Sequence record: NC_048205.1
Length of the DNA: 64,000 bases
Reading direction: 5' to 3' (one strand)
Source: Escherichia phage vB_Eco_mar004NP2
In this document: piece after piece, positions 24,559 to 33,330 of the stretch
How positions within the stretch are numbered: position 1 is the first letter of the stretch
How the letters are laid out: every line of letters starts with the position of its first letter
Translations under genes and position numbers: made by a program
Notes under the pieces: model-generated
What the model was told of the DNA's origin: nothing
Databases searched by the model: none
What the model saw: the letters and a program-made list of their open reading frames with translations, nothing else

Positions 24559-24630
24559 GCCGTCCTAGTATAATTGGTATTATCAAGCCGTAACTGGTGG
24601 AAGATGTAGGTTCGAATCCTACGGTCGGTA
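24559..24630 (+). pseudogene. tRNA-like element lacking a foldable anticodon arm (possible tRNA pseudogene)
   Basis: Acceptor-like pairing GCCGTCC/GGTCGGT and perfect T-arm GTAGG-TTCGAAT-CCTAC but no anticodon stem; no CCA. Confidence 0.3.
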
Positions 24631-26920: not shown

Positions 26921-26998
26921 GGTTCTCAAGCTCATATGGTATGAGCACCCGGCTCATAACCGGAAGGTACGTAGGTTCGAATCCTCGGGGAGCCACCA
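26921..26998 (+). tRNA. tRNA with CAT anticodon (Met, fMet or Ile2)
   Basis: AC loop CTCATAA; acceptor with two G-U pairs; T-stem imperfect. Confidence 0.5.
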
Positions 26999-29334: not shown

Positions 29335-29853
29335 GTGCATACAAAAGTTTTTGATAGTTTGGTAAAGAAAGGCGTTGTTACTAACGAGCCCTTCTATATA
29401 ACCGCAGAACTAATCCAGAGATTTATGGAAGAATATATAAATCTTTCAGGAACCAATGGTAATACCAAAAAGAATACAAATACTATGTATTCGAGAAAAC
29501 TTGCTGCACTTTCCTTTATAAAGTTTAAGCAGGAAAATAAACTTCCTATTTCTGAAGGTTTTGTATACTGTATTAGTAATCCTGCATGGAAAAATCAGTA
29601 TAAAATAGGTATGAGTCAAAATCCAAAAGAGAGATTAGCTCAATATCAGACTTATTCCCCTTATAGGGATTATAAGTTAGAGCATTGGTCTTTTTGGTTT
29701 GACAAACGAAAAGGTGAAAAACTAATTCACCAGTATTTCAAAGATTTAAAAGAACATGAGTGGTTTAGTATAAATTCTAGGGATCTTAGTAAATATCTAG
29801 AACGTATTAACTCTAGTTCTGACTTATATGGTTCCTTAGCTCTAATTGGTTAG
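29335..29853 (+). CDS. T5orf172-domain protein
   Basis: 172 aa; GFVYCISNPAWKNQYKIGMSQNPKERL matches the T5orf172 family signature as recalled; GTG start after AAAGGAAAG; 3' end overlaps next tRNA. Confidence 0.6.
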   Translation: MHTKVFDSLVKKGVVTNEPFYITAELIQRFMEEYINLSGTNGNTKKNTNTMYSRKLAALSFIKFKQENKLPISEGFVYCISNPAWKNQYKIGMSQNPKERLAQYQTYSPYRDYKLEHWSFWFDKRKGEKLIHQYFKDLKEHEWFSINSRDLSKYLERINSSSDLYGSLALIG

Positions 29854-29908
29854 AGCGGCATCTTGTTAAGTTGAGGGTTGCTGGATTCGAATCCAGCAGG
29901 AACCGCCA
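29830..29908 (+). tRNA. tRNA-Asn (anticodon GTT), tentative
   Basis: Acceptor GGTTCCT/AGGAACC, D-arm GCTC/GAGC; weak AC stem; T-loop one nt longer than canonical. Confidence 0.45.
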
Positions 29909-30010
29909 AATTCTGTGTAGAGTTAAGTAAACCGGTAGCCAACCAGCTATCATTGCTGACATCGAATTCAGCCATAGATACCATTTTCGTTAATAACTGA
30001 GGAAACAAGC

Positions 30011-30535: not shown

Positions 30536-30561
30536 AATTAAACTAGCACGAGAAATATGCT

Positions 30562-30909
30562 ATGATTAATGCTAAAGAAGAATTGTTACTTGCCCTAAAG
30601 AATACTAATTCTGAAGTTAAGTGTATTAAGATAGAATTCGGTTATTATGGGGATAAAGAAGTTTGGGTATTACCCGTAGGTTATACAGAAAAAGATATTG
30701 AAGATTTTCTAGATAATCTAGACTTTAAATATGATTCTGGTTTCGGCGGACAATTGCTTTATGGTAACGTATGGTTTACCGATGGAACTTGGTTAGAACG
30801 TGGTGAATATGATGGTTCTGAATGGTGGGAATATAAGACTACACCAGCAATCCCAGAAGAATGCCGAACAATTAATGGTGAAGTAGATCGTACTTTACTA
30901 TTAAATTAA
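30562..30909 (+). CDS. hypothetical protein
   Basis: 115-aa ORF, weak RBS. Confidence 0.5.
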   Translation: MINAKEELLLALKNTNSEVKCIKIEFGYYGDKEVWVLPVGYTEKDIEDFLDNLDFKYDSGFGGQLLYGNVWFTDGTWLERGEYDGSEWWEYKTTPAIPEECRTINGEVDRTLLLN

Positions 30910-31031
30910 CAAAATTTCAGTGCAGAACACGGAGCTAGCAATTCGGAAGTGCTGACTCATGATAAGCTGCCTATGTACTTGCGAAGCGGTCGTGTCCAAG
31001 ACTCGGACTCTTGCACTGAAAACAATCAAAC

Positions 31032-31152
31032 ATTCTAGCGTGGTTGATGGGGAAACCAGCTTGGCGAGGGCAGAAGCTCGTTCGATTCGAGTGAAAGAAT
31101 GGTTCTCGTAAGTCCGCACAAGTGATAACAGGTTCGAGTCCTGTCTAGAATG
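31032..31152 (+). ncRNA. 121-nt tRNA-like structured RNA (extra arms between acceptor and T-arm)
   Basis: Perfect 7-bp acceptor ATTCTAG/CTAGAAT, D-like hairpin TGGTT/AACCA, perfect T-arm ACAGG-TTCGAGT-CCTGT, internal extra hairpins. Confidence 0.3.
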
Positions 31153-31301
31153 ACACTATAAAGTTTACTTATTATGTAGGTTCCGATAGACCGGCGGGTC
31201 TATTCTAGCATTTAAGAGAGGTCTCGCAAACTTCTTTGTCAGCCGTGGGGTTGGTAGCCTCCAGGTGGCCTACACAATAAGTAAATTTATTAAAAATTCA
31301 T

Positions 31302-31330
31302 TTGCTATTCTGCTTTATTATCTGTATAAT
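31302..31330 (+). promoter_or_regulatory. T5-type early promoter
   Basis: -35 TTGCTA / 17 bp / -10 TATAAT. Confidence 0.6.
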
Positions 31331-31362
31331 ATATTTTATAAAGTGAAGAGAAGGAAAGCAAA

Positions 31363-31521
31363 ATGAAACACAAGATAGCTCAAGTTTTTATGGCATTATG
31401 GTGTATACCAATAGCTATAACAGCATTTAATCTAGATACTTTTACTATAGAAGAAAAATGTATCGGATTAGTTAGCGGTTTTAGTATGCTGGGCTTATCT
31501 TTGCTGTGGTTAAAGAAATAA
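31363..31521 (+). CDS. small hydrophobic protein (52 aa)
   Basis: Unlisted ORF MKHKIAQVFMALWCIPIAI... with strong RBS after promoter. Confidence 0.45.
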   Translation: MKHKIAQVFMALWCIPIAITAFNLDTFTIEEKCIGLVSGFSMLGLSLLWLKK

Positions 31522-31525
31522 TATT

Positions 31526-32002: not shown

Positions 32003-32240
32003 ATTTATATAAATTGATGAGGATTTCTCCTCATCATAGTTCACTAAGGTATTAGCTCGACCTAGGACTGGCTGCCAAAAAGCACGATCCCTACGATTCG
32101 GGAGGAGTTCTAGATTAGTCCACTAGATTCAGCGGCAACTGAATAGTGTATTGGGTTTGCGAGATGACGCGGTTCCTTCCGCTCGAAGCGAAGGTGCTGT
32201 AGTTACGCCGAGCTAATAGCCTTAGTAAACTAAAGAATTT

Positions 32241-32324: not shown

Positions 32325-32401
32325 GCGTGATTGATGGAATTGGCATACATACCGTCCTTAGAAGTCGGGTTTTGAGGGTTCGAATCCCTTGTCACGCACC
32401 A
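32325..32401 (+). tRNA. tRNA-Leu-like, anticodon TAG, type-I length
   Basis: AC loop CTTAGAA; Leu-type D-arm ATG/CAT with GAATTGGCATA loop; short variable loop; A73. Confidence 0.5.
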
Positions 32402-32526
32402 AATTTGATGGTCAGAGTAAATTAAACCTACTATCTCGGTTGAGCTGTTTTAATGGGTTCGAATCCCAGCGAGGCGTAACTGCCTGGTGTGATAGAGGCA
32501 TCATTCCACTAACATTGGAAAAACTA

Positions 32527-32757
32527 ATGAAACGAAAATTAAAAAAGTCTTATATAATTAAGATAAATAAGCTACGAAGTAGGGCAAAAGGATGGCCACT
32601 TCGAATATTAATTGCGGATAACCATACTAGATACCATGCGGAACAACGTCATTACAAACAGTGGGAGTCATACTGCCGCTCAAAAGCAGGTCGTTTAGAT
32701 GGATCTTATGAGTTTCTATTTGGTAAGAAGCCTACTAGAGTAGCTTTAGGTAATTAA
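32527..32757 (+). CDS. hypothetical basic protein
   Basis: In-frame ATG within track ORF 32389-32757, downstream of tRNA-like fragment. Confidence 0.45.
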   Translation: MKRKLKKSYIIKINKLRSRAKGWPLRILIADNHTRYHAEQRHYKQWESYCRSKAGRLDGSYEFLFGKKPTRVALGN

Positions 32758-32762
32758 TACTT

Positions 32763-32853
32763 GGAAGAGCAAATCGAATTGGCGACGAAAACCGCTTGGA
32801 AAGTGGCTGACTGGTAAAACGGCTTGAGAGTTCAAATCTCTCCTCTTCCGCCA
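32763..32853 (+). tRNA. tRNA-Ser (anticodon GGA), type II
   Basis: Acceptor GGAAGAG/CTCTTCC, AC loop TTGGAAA, long variable arm, T-arm GAGAG/CTCTC. Confidence 0.65.
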
Positions 32854-32865
32854 AACAATTTATAT

Positions 32866-32960
32866 GGTAGGTCAATCCAACGGCTGGCGCTGGACTCCGA
32901 CTTGAAATCGGTTGATCGTAGTGATACGGTGTAAGGGTTCGATCCCCTTACCTACCTCCA
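32866..32960 (+). tRNA. tRNA-Ser (anticodon TGA), type II
   Basis: Perfect acceptor GGTAGGT/ACCTACC, AC loop CTTGAAA, long variable arm. Confidence 0.65.
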
Positions 32961-32965
32961 AATCT

Positions 32966-33096
32966 TGGAATATGCCGGAATTGGTAGACGGGACTGCCGA
33001 ATAGGTTTACTAGGAACATCCACTCCTAGAAATATACCTTAAAAGCGGTTGAGTTAAATGGTCTAACTCATGAAGGTTCAAGCCCTTCTATTCCTT
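32966..33096 (+). pseudogene. tRNA-Leu-like gene (type II) interrupted by about 40 nt in the anticodon loop
   Basis: Acceptor GGAATA/TATTCC, Leu D-arm GCCGGAATTGGTAGACGGG, AC stem ACTGC/GCGGT enclosing 47 nt ending CTTAAAA, hairpin variable arm, T-arm GAAGG-TTCAAGC-CCTTC; no CCA, U73. Confidence 0.3.
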
Positions 33097-33210
33097 GATA
33101 CATCAATGGCTCAAAGTGTAACGGTGCTATTTGATGCTCTTGGAAAGACTTTCCCGACATGCGTTCGGGGGTAAGCTTCTGAGGCTAGAATAGAAGAGTT
33201 TCTGAGAGCC

Positions 33211-33330
33211 GCCACAATTGAAAATTCGTACTCGTCTTGAGCTGCGTGCAATAGGAGATAACTTGATTAGTATTCTAGAACATGCTAATTGAGGATGGTT
33301 TCGCTAACCCTGCGAGTTTTCAATTGTGGC
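33211..33330 (+). other. 18-bp inverted repeat whose 3' arm overlaps the tRNA-His 5' end
   Basis: GCCACAATTGAAAATTCG (33211-33228) vs CGAGTTTTCAATTGTGGC (33313-33330), 17/18 complementary. Confidence 0.55.

What the first reader, a model, noticed from the sequence alone, without database searches (positions are those of the whole stretch)
30910..31292. Structured non-coding region with a 121-nt tRNA-like element
No ORF occupies 380 nt. Within it, 31032-31152 has a perfect 7-bp acceptor-type pairing, a D-like hairpin and a perfect T-arm but extra internal hairpins, and a second T-arm-like motif sits at 31076-31092. A further stem (TGTAGG...CCTACA) spans 31176-31275. This looks like a tRNA-derived or tRNA-mimicking RNA rather than a standard tRNA.
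Basis: seen in the sequence. Interest (0 to 1): 0.5.

Follow-up and report, generated by a model that had tools for sequence, protein, structure and literature searches.

The report
Phage T5 stable RNAs RNA2 and RNAIV
The region holds the already catalogued phage T5 small stable RNAs RNA2 and RNAIV; RNA2 is a tRNA whose anticodon loop is replaced by a conserved 55-base folded module, a design shared by many unrelated phages and still without a known function.

Summary
The window is a T5-like phage (100% identical to Salmonella phage EH4). The curated T5 record AY543070 annotates this spot as rna2 ("tRNA-like stable RNA with unknown functions", window 31031-31155), rnaIV ("stable RNA with unknown functions", 31174-31276) and promoter P13a.

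RNA2 has a complete tRNA frame: a 7-bp acceptor stem, a D arm, a 5-bp anticodon stem, a short variable loop and a T arm. A 55-nt insert replaces the anticodon loop.

Pattern scans and a covariance model found 43 distinct homologues. They occur in Demerecviridae, in Acinetobacter phages (one of them, phage 133, a T4-type Tevenvirinae), and in uncultured phage contigs up to 570 kb. They are almost always inside same-strand tRNA arrays.

Covariation supports every helix (92.9% paired against 60% in shuffles). It also resolves the insert as a three-way junction with a T-loop hairpin, a small YGG-loop hairpin and a GGGY:RUCC helix.

The family is absent from Rfam 15 and unannotated outside T5. It cannot decode, and unlike 21 of 23 neighbouring tRNAs it lacks an encoded CCA. 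The most likely role is a tRNA-processed, non-decoding scaffold that presents a binding module; that function is inferred, not shown.

The parts
31032..31152 (+). RNA2: tRNA-framed stable RNA, from acceptor position 1 to the discriminator. The T5 annotation spans 31031-31155, adding C-1 and the 3' ACA.
   Evidence: 96.8% identical over 125 nt to T5 rna2. Covariance model R1 scores it 152.8 bits. Covariation on 43 homologues.
31032..31038 (+). Acceptor stem, 5' strand (ATTCTAG). Pairs with 31145-31151.
   Evidence: All 7 pairs change on both sides across the family, with 93.8% of cells paired. Klebsiella phage Sugarland has a fully swapped stem, UACGGGG/UCCCGUA.
31041..31058 (+). D arm (TGGTT-GATGGGGA-AACCA) with the GG of a D loop.
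   Evidence: 4 of 4 D-stem pairs covary.
31059..31063 (+). Anticodon-stem equivalent, 5' strand (GCTTG). Pairs with CAAGT at 31119-31123. This is not the pairing in the MFE fold.
   Evidence: 5 of 5 pairs covary, 96.7% paired. Examples: CCCAU/AUGGG in L009 and GCCUG/CAGGU in Sugarland.
31064..31118 (+). 55-nt insert replacing the anticodon loop. It folds as a three-way junction module.
   Evidence: 23 of 55 insert positions are at least 95% conserved, against 6 of 66 frame positions. Part of this reflects how members were collected. Anatomy.
31068..31071 (+). GGGC, 5' strand of insert helix P_i0. Pairs with GTCC at 31112-31115 (G-C, G-C, G.U, C-G).
   Evidence: The fourth pair is UA in 20, CG in 8 and mostly U.U in 15 sequences. 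C always goes with G (T5-likes, L099, L125/L048, L088).
31073..31074 (+). G and A continuing P_i0 beyond a 1x4 internal loop. G31073 pairs with C31107 and A31074 with T31106.
   Evidence: Pair 53:107 is AU 14, UA 12, GC 8. G:C is swapped to C:G in Proteus phage PM135, GGGUAC...GGUAA.
31076..31092 (+). Inner T-arm-like hairpin (GCTCG-TTCGATT-CGAGT).
   Evidence: Three stem pairs each show four pair types, for example UA 13, AU 9, CG 9, GC 9.
31097..31105 (+). Small hairpin GAA-TGG-TTC: a 3-bp stem and a YGG triloop. The GG is a candidate partner of the inner T loop.
   Evidence: The middle pair is AU 21, UA 12, CG 4. This helix was not in the model used to align. The tertiary contact is inference.
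31107..31118 (+). CGTAA-GTCC-GCA. C pairs with G31073, GTAA is a 4-nt bulge, GTCC pairs with GGGC, and GCA is single-stranded and abuts the anticodon stem.
   Evidence: The invariance is partly due to the retrieval pattern. BLAST-found members keep it (KEY, Slocum) or vary it (PM135, W16).
31128..31144 (+). T arm (ACAGG-TTCGAGT-CCTGT).
   Evidence: 4 of 5 pairs covary, 99.1% paired.
31145..31155 (+). Acceptor 3' strand CTAGAAT, discriminator G, then ACA where neighbouring tRNAs have CCA.
   Evidence: 21 of 23 tRNAs in the window are followed by CCA, usually CCAAAT. RNA2 is followed by ACA.
31174..31276 (+). RNAIV: a 103-nt stable RNA. A closing stem (31175-31182 with 31267-31274) encloses three hairpins (31185-31204, 31215-31237, 31242-31266).
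   Evidence: 96.1% identical over 103 nt to T5 rnaIV. Fold. The consensus fold is kept in 12 variants, but only 3 pairs have a change on both sides.
31161..31288 (+). 13-bp A/U-rich duplex (31161-31173 with 31276-31288) that brackets RNAIV. Candidate double-strand processing site.
   Evidence: MFE fold of 31160-31292, z = -5.66, with 0 of 200 shuffles folding as well. Invariant in 12 variants. The processing role is inference.
31302..31330 (+). Promoter P13a (TTGCTA, 17-nt spacer, TATAAT). It starts the next transcription unit and marks the downstream limit of the RNA2/RNAIV unit.
   Evidence: T5 annotates promoter P13a at the equivalent of 31283-31357. The consensus scan gives 10 of 12 matches.
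30910..31030 (+). 120-nt non-coding leader between the T5.067 homologue and RNA2, with a 12-bp long-range stem (30915-30926 with 31009-31021). Not annotated in T5; belonging to the RNA2 unit is uncertain.
   Evidence: At least 97.5% identical in 31 T5-like loci. Absent from Epseptimavirus relatives. Fold z = -1.84. Sequences are too similar to test covariation.

Best explanation
The region carries two already catalogued phage T5 genes for small stable RNAs, rna2 (window 31031-31155) and rnaIV (31174-31276). They lie at the end of a transcription unit inside the tRNA gene cluster, just upstream of promoter P13a.

RNA2 is a tRNA-derived RNA that does not decode. It keeps the whole tRNA frame: acceptor stem, D arm, 5-bp anticodon stem, short variable loop and T arm. 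The anticodon loop is replaced by a conserved 55-nt three-way-junction module.

The module has three helices. One is GGGY:RUCC, continued past a GUAA bulge by two more pairs. One is a hairpin with a canonical T loop (UUCGAUU). One is a 3-bp hairpin with a YGG triloop.

How it most likely works:
- It is transcribed with the neighbouring tRNAs (shown by context).
- It is cut out and stabilised by the tRNA-processing machinery because it looks like a tRNA (inferred; consistent with T5's label 'stable RNA').
- It cannot read codons (shown: there is no anticodon loop).
- The tRNA body therefore acts as a processing and stability scaffold that displays the conserved module. The module most plausibly binds or titrates a factor that normally inspects the anticodon end of tRNAs, such as a host tRNA-targeting nuclease or modification enzyme, or another universal translation or RNA-processing component.

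My probabilities: about 0.95 that this is the T5 RNA2/RNAIV orthologue pair; about 0.8 that RNA2 is a functional non-decoding tRNA-framed RNA; about 0.3 for the decoy or binding-platform role specifically.

RNAIV is a separate cloverleaf-shaped 103-nt RNA found only in T5-like phages. It is bracketed by a 13-bp duplex that probably guides its excision. Its function is unknown.
For: Identity:
- The window is 100% identical to Salmonella phage EH4 over the 966-nt query spanning this region (30560-31525).
- The region is 97.4% identical over 387 nt to T5 AY543070. That record annotates rna2, rnaIV and promoter P13a between T5.067 and T5.066, whose homologues flank the region here.

Family:
- A motif scan plus covariance model R1 gave 43 distinct full-length homologues. 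They come from IMG/VR, metagenomes and two MAG contigs.
- BLAST added isolates from Providencia, Proteus, Serratia, Erwinia, Pectobacterium, Klebsiella and Acinetobacter phages.

Structure:
- 92.9% of cells are paired against 60% in shuffles. Covariation is 0.772 against 0.168, with 0 of 500 shuffles as high; slid controls give 0.06-0.13. Every tRNA-frame helix and the inner hairpin covary.
- Three insert helices that were not in the alignment model also covary: 53:107, 95:105 and 50:114.
- PM135, which was found by BLAST and not by the pattern, swaps G52:C109 to C:G.
- The Rfam tRNA model scores relatives L122 and L099 at 50.6 and 47.9 bits (threshold 29), with 51- and 56-nt insertions in place of the anticodon loop.

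The module is the selected part:
- 23 of 55 insert positions are at least 95% conserved, against 6 of 66 frame positions. Mean identity of the window copy to the 35 aligned members outside the T5-like/Epseptimavirus group (Markadamsvirinae) is 0.67 for the insert and 0.46 for the frame.

Context:
- 38 of 43 members have a tRNA within 2 kb. All 169 neighbouring tRNAs are on the same strand, and many lie only 4-11 nt away.

Not a translating tRNA:
- There is no 7-nt anticodon loop.
- ACA stands where 21 of 23 neighbouring tRNAs have CCA. CCA is encoded in few members and the discriminator varies.

Phage-restricted:
- Only 2 of 29 pattern hits in 185,579 species genomes are real, and both sit in tRNA arrays on MAG contigs.

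No linked protein:
- No protein family recurs within 4 kb in 32 diverse loci. This fits a universal or host partner.
Against: - No experiment or transcript data were available here. 'Stable RNA' rests on the wording of the T5 GenBank annotation.
- The binding partner is unknown and nothing in the data names one.
- Invariance of GTTCRATTC and CGTAANTCCGCA is partly an artefact, because members were retrieved with that pattern. A BLAST-found Acinetobacter member (W16) departs from GGGY, UCC and GCA.
- Single-sequence folding of RNA2 is not significant (z = -1.0).
- The alignment was fitted to the model for five of the eight helices, which leans the counts towards that structure.
- The GGGY:RUCC helix has 15 of 43 non-standard cells at its fourth pair.
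- ARAGORN in intron mode reads 10 of 43 members as tRNA-Arg(CCG) with an intron, so a decoding role after processing is not formally excluded.
- RNAIV's structure is supported by energy only.
Confidence: 0.6

Rival explanations
1. RNA2 is an intron-containing tRNA gene, read as tRNA-Arg(CCG). The roughly 48-nt segment from the end of the anticodon-stem 5' strand to CGUAA would be removed. That would leave R-U-CCG-C-A as the anticodon loop and a working tRNA for CGG codons.
For:
- The 'intron' GGGY pairs with the would-be positions 32-35, as introns pair with the anticodon region in spliced pre-tRNAs (established knowledge). The arrangement of a helix, an internal loop, a 4-bp helix and a 4-nt bulge loosely recalls a bulge-helix-bulge motif.
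- No tRNA-Arg(CCG) was seen among the tRNAs flanking 16 loci or in the window.
Against: - T5 annotates a 125-nt stable RNA, that is, the unspliced length.
- The 'intron' is the most conserved part and the frame the least. That is the reverse of protein-spliced introns.
- The would-be loop has C at position 37, which is a purine in functional tRNAs (established knowledge).
- The D loops of most members lack A20, the main ArgRS identity element, and the discriminator varies.
- ARAGORN finds nothing in the T5-like copies and gives other, inconsistent anticodons in 8 members.
- At 55 nt the insert is far too short for a group I intron, and no Rfam intron or ribozyme family matches.
- No splicing endonuclease of the archaeal type is known in bacteria or these phages (own knowledge; not tested here).
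- CCA is not encoded, although the neighbouring tRNAs encode it.
Confidence: 0.1
2. The RNAs have no function of their own in trans. They would be cis-acting structural punctuation of the polycistronic tRNA-cluster transcript. As tRNA-like and long-duplex elements, they would recruit RNase P, RNase III or RNase E to separate and stabilise neighbouring tRNAs or mRNAs, and persist only as by-products.
For: - They sit between an ORF and the next promoter, inside same-strand tRNA arrays.
- RNAIV is bracketed by a 13-bp duplex.
- A tRNA frame is a natural RNase P substrate (established knowledge).
Against: Punctuation needs only an acceptor/T-arm mimic. It does not explain a sequence-conserved 55-nt three-way junction kept across Demerecviridae, Acinetobacter phages and uncultured phage contigs of 155-570 kb, while the frame drifts. 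Many members lie 4-11 nt from ordinary tRNAs, which already supply processing sites.
Confidence: 0.1
3. RNA2 is a decaying pseudo-tRNA: a tRNA gene disrupted by an insertion and drifting without function.
For: - It is not recognised by ARAGORN or by Rfam in the window.
- It lacks an anticodon loop and an encoded CCA.
- Some members have imperfect acceptor stems (for example the TrudiRoth U.U mismatch) or degraded frames (L013, 133).
Against: There are 43 distinct homologues in very distant phages with compensatory changes in every helix, and the inserted part is the most conserved. Drift would destroy pairing. The curated T5 record labels it a stable RNA.
Confidence: 0.04
4. RNA2 is a miniature tmRNA-like or other ribosome-directed RNA. 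It would be charged at its acceptor end and enter the ribosome, with the insert acting as a short template or as a mimic of a ribosomal RNA or tRNA elbow.
For: - It has a tRNA-like acceptor and T arm plus an internal extra domain.
- A short frame ending in the conserved UAA of CGUAA can be read in some members (by eye).
- The insert helix begins G-C, G-C, G.U, like an alanine acceptor stem.
Against: - ARAGORN finds no tmRNA in the window. Rfam tmRNA gives no match in the window at E up to 10 and only 17-nt T-loop matches in relatives.
- The true acceptor stem has no G3:U70; here it is U3-A70.
- It has a D stem and an anticodon stem, unlike tmRNA.
- The putative frame is not conserved in length or sequence across members.
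- CCA is mostly not encoded.
Confidence: 0.03
5. The region is protein-coding. One of the short ORFs (72 aa on the minus strand at 30901-31119, or 50 aa on the plus strand at 30959-31111) would be a real gene, as some GenBank records annotate.
For: Mechanical ORFs exist. Several phage records place 'hypothetical protein' over the homologous stretch, for example Serratia phage Slocum on the opposite strand.
Against: The curated T5 record has no CDS here. Substitutions across the family are paired compensatory changes in helices, with length variation in loops. That is incompatible with a conserved reading frame. The ORFs are not conserved in relatives, where the element directly abuts tRNAs.
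Confidence: 0.02

Closest known systems
Bacteriophage T5 RNA2 (gene rna2, misc_RNA 32959-33083 of GenBank AY543070)
   Same: Orthologue. It is 96.8% identical over 125 nt. It sits in the same position between the T5.067 and T5.066 homologues, on the same strand as the tRNA cluster.
   Different: Only a few substitutions, for example A31058 where T5 has... the D-stem closing pair varies, and T5 has a U3.G70 wobble where the window has U3-A70. The T5 record gives no structure beyond 'tRNA-like' and no function.
Bacteriophage T5 RNAIV (gene rnaIV, misc_RNA 32838-32940 of AY543070)
   Same: Orthologue. It is 96.1% identical over 103 nt and lies immediately downstream of RNA2 and upstream of promoter P13a.
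   Different: Nothing substantive. Its function is unknown in T5 as well. In Epseptimavirus and related phages a tRNA-Gly or a homing-endonuclease ORF is inserted between RNA2 and RNAIV.
Canonical tRNA (Rfam RF00005)
   Same: It has a 7-bp acceptor stem, a D arm with GG, a 5-bp anticodon stem, a 4-5-nt variable loop and a T arm with a TPsiC-type loop, all covarying. Relatives L122 and L099 pass the RF00005 gathering score. It lies in tRNA arrays.
   Different: The 7-nt anticodon loop is replaced by 45-57 nt of conserved structure. The window copy is not detected by RF00005 or ARAGORN. CCA is not encoded here, although neighbours encode it. The discriminator varies.
Phage T4 species 1 and species 2 stable RNAs (rnaC, rnaD)
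   Same: They are small stable RNAs of unknown function at the edge of a phage tRNA cluster, on the same strand as the tRNAs.
   Different: They are not homologous. Model R1 matches only ordinary tRNAs in the T4 region, and their sequences lack the insert motifs. An RNA2-type element is nevertheless present in the T4-type Acinetobacter phage 133.
Intron-containing tRNA genes (archaeal/eukaryal bulge-helix-bulge introns; bacterial group I introns in tRNA)
   Same: Extra sequence lies within the anticodon loop region and pairs with loop nucleotides. ARAGORN in intron mode accepts some members.
   Different: The insert is the conserved part. The full-length RNA is the stable species according to the T5 annotation. 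No canonical 3-nt/4-bp/3-nt bulge-helix-bulge is present. The residual loop would have C37. The insert is far smaller than any group I intron.
Engineered 'tRNA scaffold' RNAs (a foreign RNA inserted in the anticodon stem of a tRNA to gain processing and stability; own knowledge, Ponchon and Dardel 2007)
   Same: The design principle is the same: an intact tRNA body carries a structured RNA in place of the anticodon loop.
   Different: That system is artificial. Here the arrangement is natural, ancient and confined to phages. That the scaffold effect applies here is inference.
Other tRNA mimics: tmRNA, bacterial Y-RNA-like YrlA, plant-virus tRNA-like structures
   Same: They use tRNA-like acceptor/T-arm geometry in an RNA that does not act as an ordinary adaptor.
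   Different: tmRNA lacks D and anticodon stems and carries a tag ORF. YrlA is topologically permuted and partners with Ro60. Viral tRNA-like structures are 3' ends of RNA genomes. None of these Rfam families matches the window. In relatives there are only sub-threshold fragments.

Membership tests
T5 RNA2 (rna2) | Sequence orthology to the annotated T5 gene | tested here: met
   96.8% identity over all 125 nt. 97.4% over the 387-nt region.
T5 RNA2 (rna2) | Same genomic position and strand (between T5.067 and P13a/T5.066, in the tRNA cluster) | tested here: met
   The T5 features map collinearly with a constant offset of 29410. The flanking ORFs 30562-30909 and 31363-31521 correspond to T5.067 and T5.066.
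T5 RNA2 (rna2) | Accumulates as a stable RNA of about 125 nt in infected cells | not testable with these tools
   Only the wording of the GenBank annotation is available. No T5 small-RNA paper was found in the searchable library.
T5 RNAIV (rnaIV) | Sequence orthology and position directly downstream of rna2 | tested here: met
   96.1% over 103 nt at 31174-31276.
tRNA (Rfam RF00005 / ARAGORN) | Cloverleaf frame: 7-bp acceptor stem, D arm, 5-bp anticodon stem, T arm with T loop | tested here: met
   All four stems are present in the window copy and covary in 43 homologues.
tRNA (Rfam RF00005 / ARAGORN) | 7-nt anticodon loop with U33 and a purine at 37 | tested here: not met
   55 nt lie between the anticodon-stem strands. 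The only candidate loop, R-U-CCG-C-A, has C37 and is base-paired to GGGY.
tRNA (Rfam RF00005 / ARAGORN) | Detection above the family threshold | tested here: not met
   The window copy has no RF00005 match at the gathering score or at E up to 10, and no ARAGORN call. Relatives L122 and L099 do pass, at 50.6 and 47.9 bits, with the loop replaced by 51-56 nt.
tRNA (Rfam RF00005 / ARAGORN) | 3' CCA end, encoded as in the other tRNAs of this phage | tested here: not met
   ACA follows the discriminator. 21 of 23 tRNAs in the window have CCA.
tmRNA | Detection by ARAGORN or Rfam RF00023; tag reading frame; G3:U70 in the acceptor stem | tested here: not met
   There is no ARAGORN tmRNA and no RF00023 match in the window. 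The acceptor has U3-A70. No conserved frame is present.
Bulge-helix-bulge tRNA intron | Two 3-nt bulges on opposite strands separated by a 4-bp helix, at a splice position that restores a normal anticodon loop | tested here: not met
   A 4-bp helix (GGGY:RUCC) is present. It is flanked by a 4x3 internal loop and a 1x4 loop rather than by 3-nt bulges, and the restored loop would have C37.
Bulge-helix-bulge tRNA intron | Spliced product exists in vivo | not testable with these tools
   This needs RNA sequencing. The T5 annotation gives the unspliced length.
Group I intron in a tRNA gene | Catalytic core (P3-P9) of roughly 200 nt or more; Rfam Intron_gpI match | tested here: not met
   The insert is 55 nt. 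No Rfam match is found in the window at E up to 10 or in ten relatives at E up to 1.
YrlA / bacterial Y RNA | Rfam RF02553 match; Ro60-binding helix | tested here: not met
   There is no match in the window. One relative, L099, has a sub-threshold match (23.8 against 69 bits) that overlaps only the 3' end of its RNA2-like element and extends into the neighbouring tRNA.
T4 rnaC / rnaD stable RNAs | Homology in sequence and structure | tested here: not met
   Model R1 finds only tRNA-Ser and tRNA-Leu in the T4 tRNA region and nothing at rnaC or rnaD.

The most novel reading that the evidence does not exclude
T5 RNA2 would be the long-overlooked founding member of a widespread, phage-restricted class of tRNA-scaffolded RNAs, so far unannotated outside T5. 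In this class a conserved three-way-junction module (a T-loop hairpin, a YGG hairpin and a GGGY:RUCC helix with a GUAA bulge) replaces the anticodon loop and carries a specific trans-acting function. Candidate functions are a decoy or inhibitor of a tRNA-directed host factor or defence nuclease, or a new kind of self-contained processing element. Other tRNA-framed RNAs with different long inserts in the same phage tRNA arrays (L013, L009, L105, L135; T5 RNA2H) suggest that phages use tRNA bodies as general carriers for functional RNA modules.
Probability: 0.35. Interest if true: 0.7.

Novelty: already known. Interest (0 to 1): 0.42.

Why it matters
For this scan the finding is a rediscovery. 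The element is catalogued in the reference T5 genome, so it should not be counted as new.

It still marks an open problem. The function of the T5 stable RNAs is given as unknown even in the curated reference record, and no paper on them turned up in the literature searches run here. Three results here bear on that:
- RNA2 is not a T5 oddity. It belongs to a family spread across very different tRNA-rich phages, from 100-kb Demerecviridae to contigs of 570 kb.
- The conserved part is the insert, not the tRNA body.
- There is now a covariation-backed secondary-structure model that says which nucleotides to mutate.

The family is missing from Rfam 15. It is unannotated, or mis-annotated as protein, in hundreds of phage records, so a family model would improve phage annotation at once.

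tRNA-targeting defences such as PARIS, retron Eco7 and Schlafen nucleases are now known to act on T5-type phages. A conserved non-decoding tRNA mimic in those same phages is therefore a reasonable candidate for a counter-measure. That link is speculation until tested.

Tried and rejected
1. Rfam at gathering and permissive thresholds on the window found no family in 30800-31400. The two hits at E of about 3-4 (pan, sRNA162) are noise in the A/T-rich promoter region.
2. ARAGORN in standard mode found neither a tRNA nor a tmRNA there.
3. The MFE fold pairs GCUUG with UAAGU and CGAGGGC with GGUUCUCG. I rejected it because the family covaries for GCUUG:CAAGU instead, and because the 5' CGA varies while its proposed partner does not.
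4. MAFFT alignments of divergent members misplace stems by 1-2 columns. I replaced them with a covariance-model alignment.
5. I looked for a conserved neighbouring protein gene within 4 kb in 32 diverse loci and found none.
6. I considered homology to T4 rnaC/rnaD and rejected it.
7. I considered a resemblance of the insert to the 23S rRNA L11-binding (GTPase-associated) region, the sarcin-ricin loop and the 16S 3' end. This was from memory only. The shared strings fall in variable parts or in a different topology, so I did not pursue it.
8. I considered a short coding frame ending at the UAA of CGUAA. It is not conserved.
They yielded one extra variant, L284. BLAST-derived members served as the independent check instead.
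10. Seven full-text literature searches found no paper on T5 RNA2/RNAIV or on this RNA family. The T5 sequencing literature I would expect to describe these RNAs (from memory, 1980s work) was not found in the searchable library.
11. The genome-contig scan gave 27 of 29 hits that are chance matches in coding DNA.
Full report
**What the window is, and what is annotated at the site.** A 966-nt query around the finding is 100% identical to Salmonella phage EH4. It matches about 500 T5-like phage records. The 391-nt finding matches T5 AY543070 at 97.4% over 387 nt, and that record lists 'rna2: RNA2 | rnaIV: RNAIV | promoter' under the match.

The annotated T5 stretch reads as follows:
- CDS T5.067.
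- misc_RNA rna2, 'tRNA-like stable RNA with unknown functions', 125 nt.
- misc_RNA rnaIV, 'stable RNA with unknown functions', 103 nt.
- Promoter P13a.
- CDS T5.066, then tRNA-Pro, tRNA-fMet and further tRNAs.

The mapping to the window is collinear. By BLAST, rna2 is window 31031-31155 (96.8%) and rnaIV is 31174-31276 (96.1%). The flanking ORFs 30562-30909 and 31363-31521 are the T5.067 and T5.066 homologues.

**Check of the observation.** All described pairings are present within 1-2 nt of the stated coordinates. ARAGORN finds 21 tRNAs in the window and Rfam finds 23, but neither finds anything at 30910-31292. A permissive Rfam scan gives only noise. Single-sequence folding is weak evidence: z = -1.0 for the 121 nt and -2.5 for the 383 nt. 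The case for structure is comparative and is set out below.

**A family, not a T5 oddity.** BLAST already showed partial matches outside the T5 genus, in Pectobacterium phage My1, Klebsiella phage Sugarland and the T4-type Acinetobacter phage 133. In phage 133 the element sits between tRNA-Gly and tRNA-Cys.

From these I derived the pattern GTTCRATTC-N(10-32)-CGTAANTCCGCA and scanned three collections:
- IMG/VR: 47 loci, including contigs of 155-363 kb.
- Metagenomes: 96 loci reported, including a 570-kb contig.
- One genome per species: 29 loci.

A covariance model built from five T5-like copies (R1) then separated real members from chance hits. Full-length matches of 112-131 nt occur in dozens of phage loci. 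Only 2 of the 29 genome hits are real, and both lie in tRNA arrays on MAG contigs of 330 and 167 kb.

Further BLAST searches show the element in Providencia, Proteus, Serratia and Erwinia Demerecviridae and in other Acinetobacter phages. It is never annotated there, or it is covered by a spurious 'hypothetical protein'.

**Structure.** The model-based alignment A4 holds 43 distinct sequences. Many have textbook tRNA frames. L122, for example, reads AUGCGUA-UA-GCUC-AGUUGGUA-GAGC-G-CUCUG[...]CAGAG-AGGUC-AUAGG-UUCAAGU-CCUAU-UGCGCAU-C. The Rfam tRNA model itself scores L122 and L099 at 50.6 and 47.9 bits (threshold 29), with 51 and 56 nt replacing the anticodon loop.

Counting pairs on A4 gives these results:
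- 92.9% of 1449 cells are standard pairs, against 60.0% in shuffles.
- 479 cells change on both sides, against 138 in shuffles.
- The covariation score is 0.772 against 0.168, with 0 of 500 shuffles as high. It is 0.06-0.13 when partners are slid by 1-3 columns.
- All pairs of the acceptor, D and anticodon stems covary, as do 4 of 5 in the T stem and 4 of 5 in the inner hairpin.

The conserved anticodon-stem pairing in the window is GCUUG (31059-31063) with CAAGU (31119-31123). It is not the pairing chosen by the MFE fold.

**Anatomy of the insert (31064-31118).** I parsed the unaligned segments and ran an all-against-all column scan. These showed three further helices that were not in the model, so the alignment is not biased towards them.

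1. GGGY (31068-31071) pairs with RUCC (31112-31115). The first three pairs are fixed as G-C, G-C, G.U. The fourth is U-A in 20 sequences, C-G in 8 (in four separate lineages) and mostly U.U in 15.
2. Past a 1x4 internal loop (one nucleotide opposite GUAA), G31073 pairs with C31107 and A31074 with U31106. The second of these pairs is AU 14, UA 12, GC 8. The first, invariant in A4, is swapped to C:G in Proteus phage PM135 (GGGUAC...GGUAA), a member found by BLAST and not by the pattern.
3. A 3-bp hairpin (31097-31105) carries a YGG triloop. Its middle pair is AU 21, UA 12, CG 4.

Together with the inner hairpin (31076-31092), whose loop UUCGAUU is a canonical T loop, the insert is a three-way junction. 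By analogy with the D-loop/T-loop contact of tRNA, the GG of the triloop is a natural partner for the inner T loop. That would give the RNA a second 'elbow' at the anticodon end. This tertiary contact is inference.

Some members (L164, L134) carry an extra hairpin in the junction. This fits a modular junction.

**Which part is under selection.** In A4, 23 of 55 insert positions are at least 95% conserved, against 6 of 66 frame positions, and all six lie in the true T arm: five in its loop plus the adjoining last pair of the 5' stem strand. Mean identity of the window copy to the 35 aligned members outside the T5-like/Epseptimavirus group (Markadamsvirinae) is 0.67 in the insert and 0.46 in the frame.

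There is a caveat. 21 of the conserved insert positions were required by my retrieval pattern, so their invariance is partly built in. Independent positions (GGG, G31073) and BLAST-derived members (KEY, Slocum, PM135, Proteus phage 1) confirm the pattern. Acinetobacter phage W16 departs from it at GGGY, UCC and GCA.

**Context.** 38 of 43 members have a tRNA within 2 kb and 32 have one within 500 nt. All 169 neighbouring tRNAs are on the same strand. Spacings of 4-11 nt to the next tRNA are common. No protein family recurs within 4 kb in 32 diverse loci.

In this window 21 of 23 tRNAs are followed by CCA, usually CCAAAT. RNA2 is followed by ACA. Across the family CCA is encoded in only a few members and the discriminator varies.

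**What it is and how it probably works.**

Shown:
- It is the T5 RNA2 orthologue.
- It is a tRNA-framed RNA with the anticodon loop replaced by a conserved structured module.
- It is embedded in tRNA transcription units.
- It is confined to phages.
- It has no anticodon loop, so it cannot decode as it stands.

Taken from the T5 record: it accumulates as a stable RNA of the unspliced length.

Inferred:
- Because it retains the full tRNA frame, it is excised by RNase P and 3' trimming like its neighbours, and it is protected like a tRNA.
- The body thus serves as a processing and stability scaffold, the same principle as engineered tRNA scaffolds (own knowledge).
- The module is the functional end.
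- Since no linked phage protein is seen and the hosts are very diverse, the partner is likely a universal or host component that recognises the anticodon end of tRNAs.

I put about 0.3 on a decoy or binding-platform role. tRNA-cleaving defences are known to act on T5-type phages, which makes this attractive but unproven.

**Main rival.** The main rival is an intron-containing tRNA-Arg(CCG). ARAGORN in intron mode gives this reading for 10 of 43 members. The GGGY:RUCC helix resembles intron-anticodon pairing. No tRNA-Arg(CCG) was seen nearby.

Against it:
- The stable species in T5 is full length.
- The 'intron' is the conserved part.
- The loop would have C37.
- Most D loops lack the arginine identity base A20, and discriminators vary.
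- The T5-like copies are not called at all.
- No ribozyme or intron family matches.

I give it about 0.1. The other rivals (pure processing punctuation, a dead pseudo-tRNA, a tmRNA-like RNA, coding ORFs) are weaker still, for the reasons listed with each.

**RNAIV and the leader.** RNAIV folds as a closing stem (31175-31182 with 31267-31274) around three hairpins. It is bracketed by a 13-bp A/U-rich duplex (31161-31173 with 31276-31288). With that duplex the fold has z = -5.66.

Homologues exist only in T5-like phages, at 82-100% identity. The consensus fold is kept, but only 3 of 49 pairs show a change on both sides. The structure therefore rests on energy and conservation, not covariation. 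The duplex is a plausible RNase III-type excision signal (inference).

The first 120 nt (30910-31030) form a long-range 12-bp stem and are at least 97.5% conserved among T5-like phages. They are absent from Epseptimavirus and are unannotated in T5. What they are remains open.

What appears not to be on record is the family. It is absent from Rfam 15, unannotated in the isolate records listed in the BLAST outputs other than T5, and not found in seven full-text literature searches. The T5 papers I would expect to describe these RNAs (from memory, 1980s work) were not found in the searchable library, so earlier structural descriptions of RNA2 cannot be excluded.

Interest is moderate. It is a rediscovery, but of an RNA whose function is still unknown, now with a broad phylogenetic distribution and a testable structure.

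Noticed in passing
window 30910-31030: A 120-nt non-coding stretch between the T5.067 homologue and RNA2, with a 12-bp long-range stem (30915-30926 with 31009-31021). It is at least 97.5% identical in 31 T5-like loci, absent from Epseptimavirus relatives, and not annotated in T5. My1 has a shorter analogous stem-loop sharing CGGACTCT.
   Followed up: partly
window 31161-31173 with 31276-31288: A 13-bp A/U-rich duplex lies just outside the annotated ends of RNAIV (z = -5.66 with it, -1.69 without). It looks like a double-strand-specific processing site.
   Followed up: partly
window 32050-32221 and 29911-29983: These are the counterparts of two further T5 misc_RNAs. RNA2H is 172 nt, with a 9-bp terminal stem and an internal T-arm-like hairpin. 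RNA3 is 73 nt and annotated 'putative tRNA-like RNA'. They are 98.3% and 98.6% identical to T5. Neither was analysed further.
   Followed up: no
window 32763-32850: An 88-nt element with a 7-bp acceptor-type stem and a perfect T arm (GAGAG-TTCAAAT-CTCTC). ARAGORN does not call it and Rfam does not reach its gathering score. It gives a weak R1 hit of 14.5 bits. The surrounding 32400-33300 has no called tRNA.
   Followed up: no
window 24559-24630, 26921-26995, 29830-29905: Three tRNAs reach the Rfam gathering score but are missed by ARAGORN. In T5, the 29830-29905 position corresponds to the annotated tRNA-Asn.
   Followed up: no
L013 8798-8910; L009 8968-9094; L105 1367-1490; L135 5111-5225: Other RNAs of 113-127 nt in phage tRNA arrays have a tRNA acceptor stem and T arm but different long internal inserts. 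L135 has an inner UUCGAUU hairpin but lacks the CGUAA-UCCGCA motif. This suggests that tRNA-framed carriers of other modules exist.
   Followed up: partly
L005 733-806 (TrudiRoth), L003 1139-1209 (My1), L007 445-819 (OSY-STA), L006 about 590-940 (OSYSP): The spacer between RNA2 and RNAIV is an insertion hot spot. Epseptimavirus and My1 carry a tRNA-Gly plus about 190 nt there, OSY-STA carries an HNH endonuclease ORF, and OSYSP carries a roughly 350-nt insert with a small ORF.
   Followed up: partly
L413 161-277 and 296-437 (Acinetobacter phage vB_AbaSt_W16): A divergent RNA2-type element (AGGCUG...CGUAAGACCAUA) lies 19 nt upstream of a gene annotated 'RF-1 domain peptide chain release factor'.
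   Followed up: no
L412 92-271 (Serratia phage Slocum) and records H56, H57, H112, H122: GenBank records place 'hypothetical protein' CDSs over the RNA2-type element. In Slocum the CDS is on the opposite strand. These are probably annotation artefacts.
   Followed up: partly
window 31032-31152 against L122 and L099: The Rfam tRNA model accepts some family members as tRNAs with a 51-56-nt insertion but misses the T5-type copies. Automated pipelines will therefore annotate the family inconsistently.
   Followed up: yes
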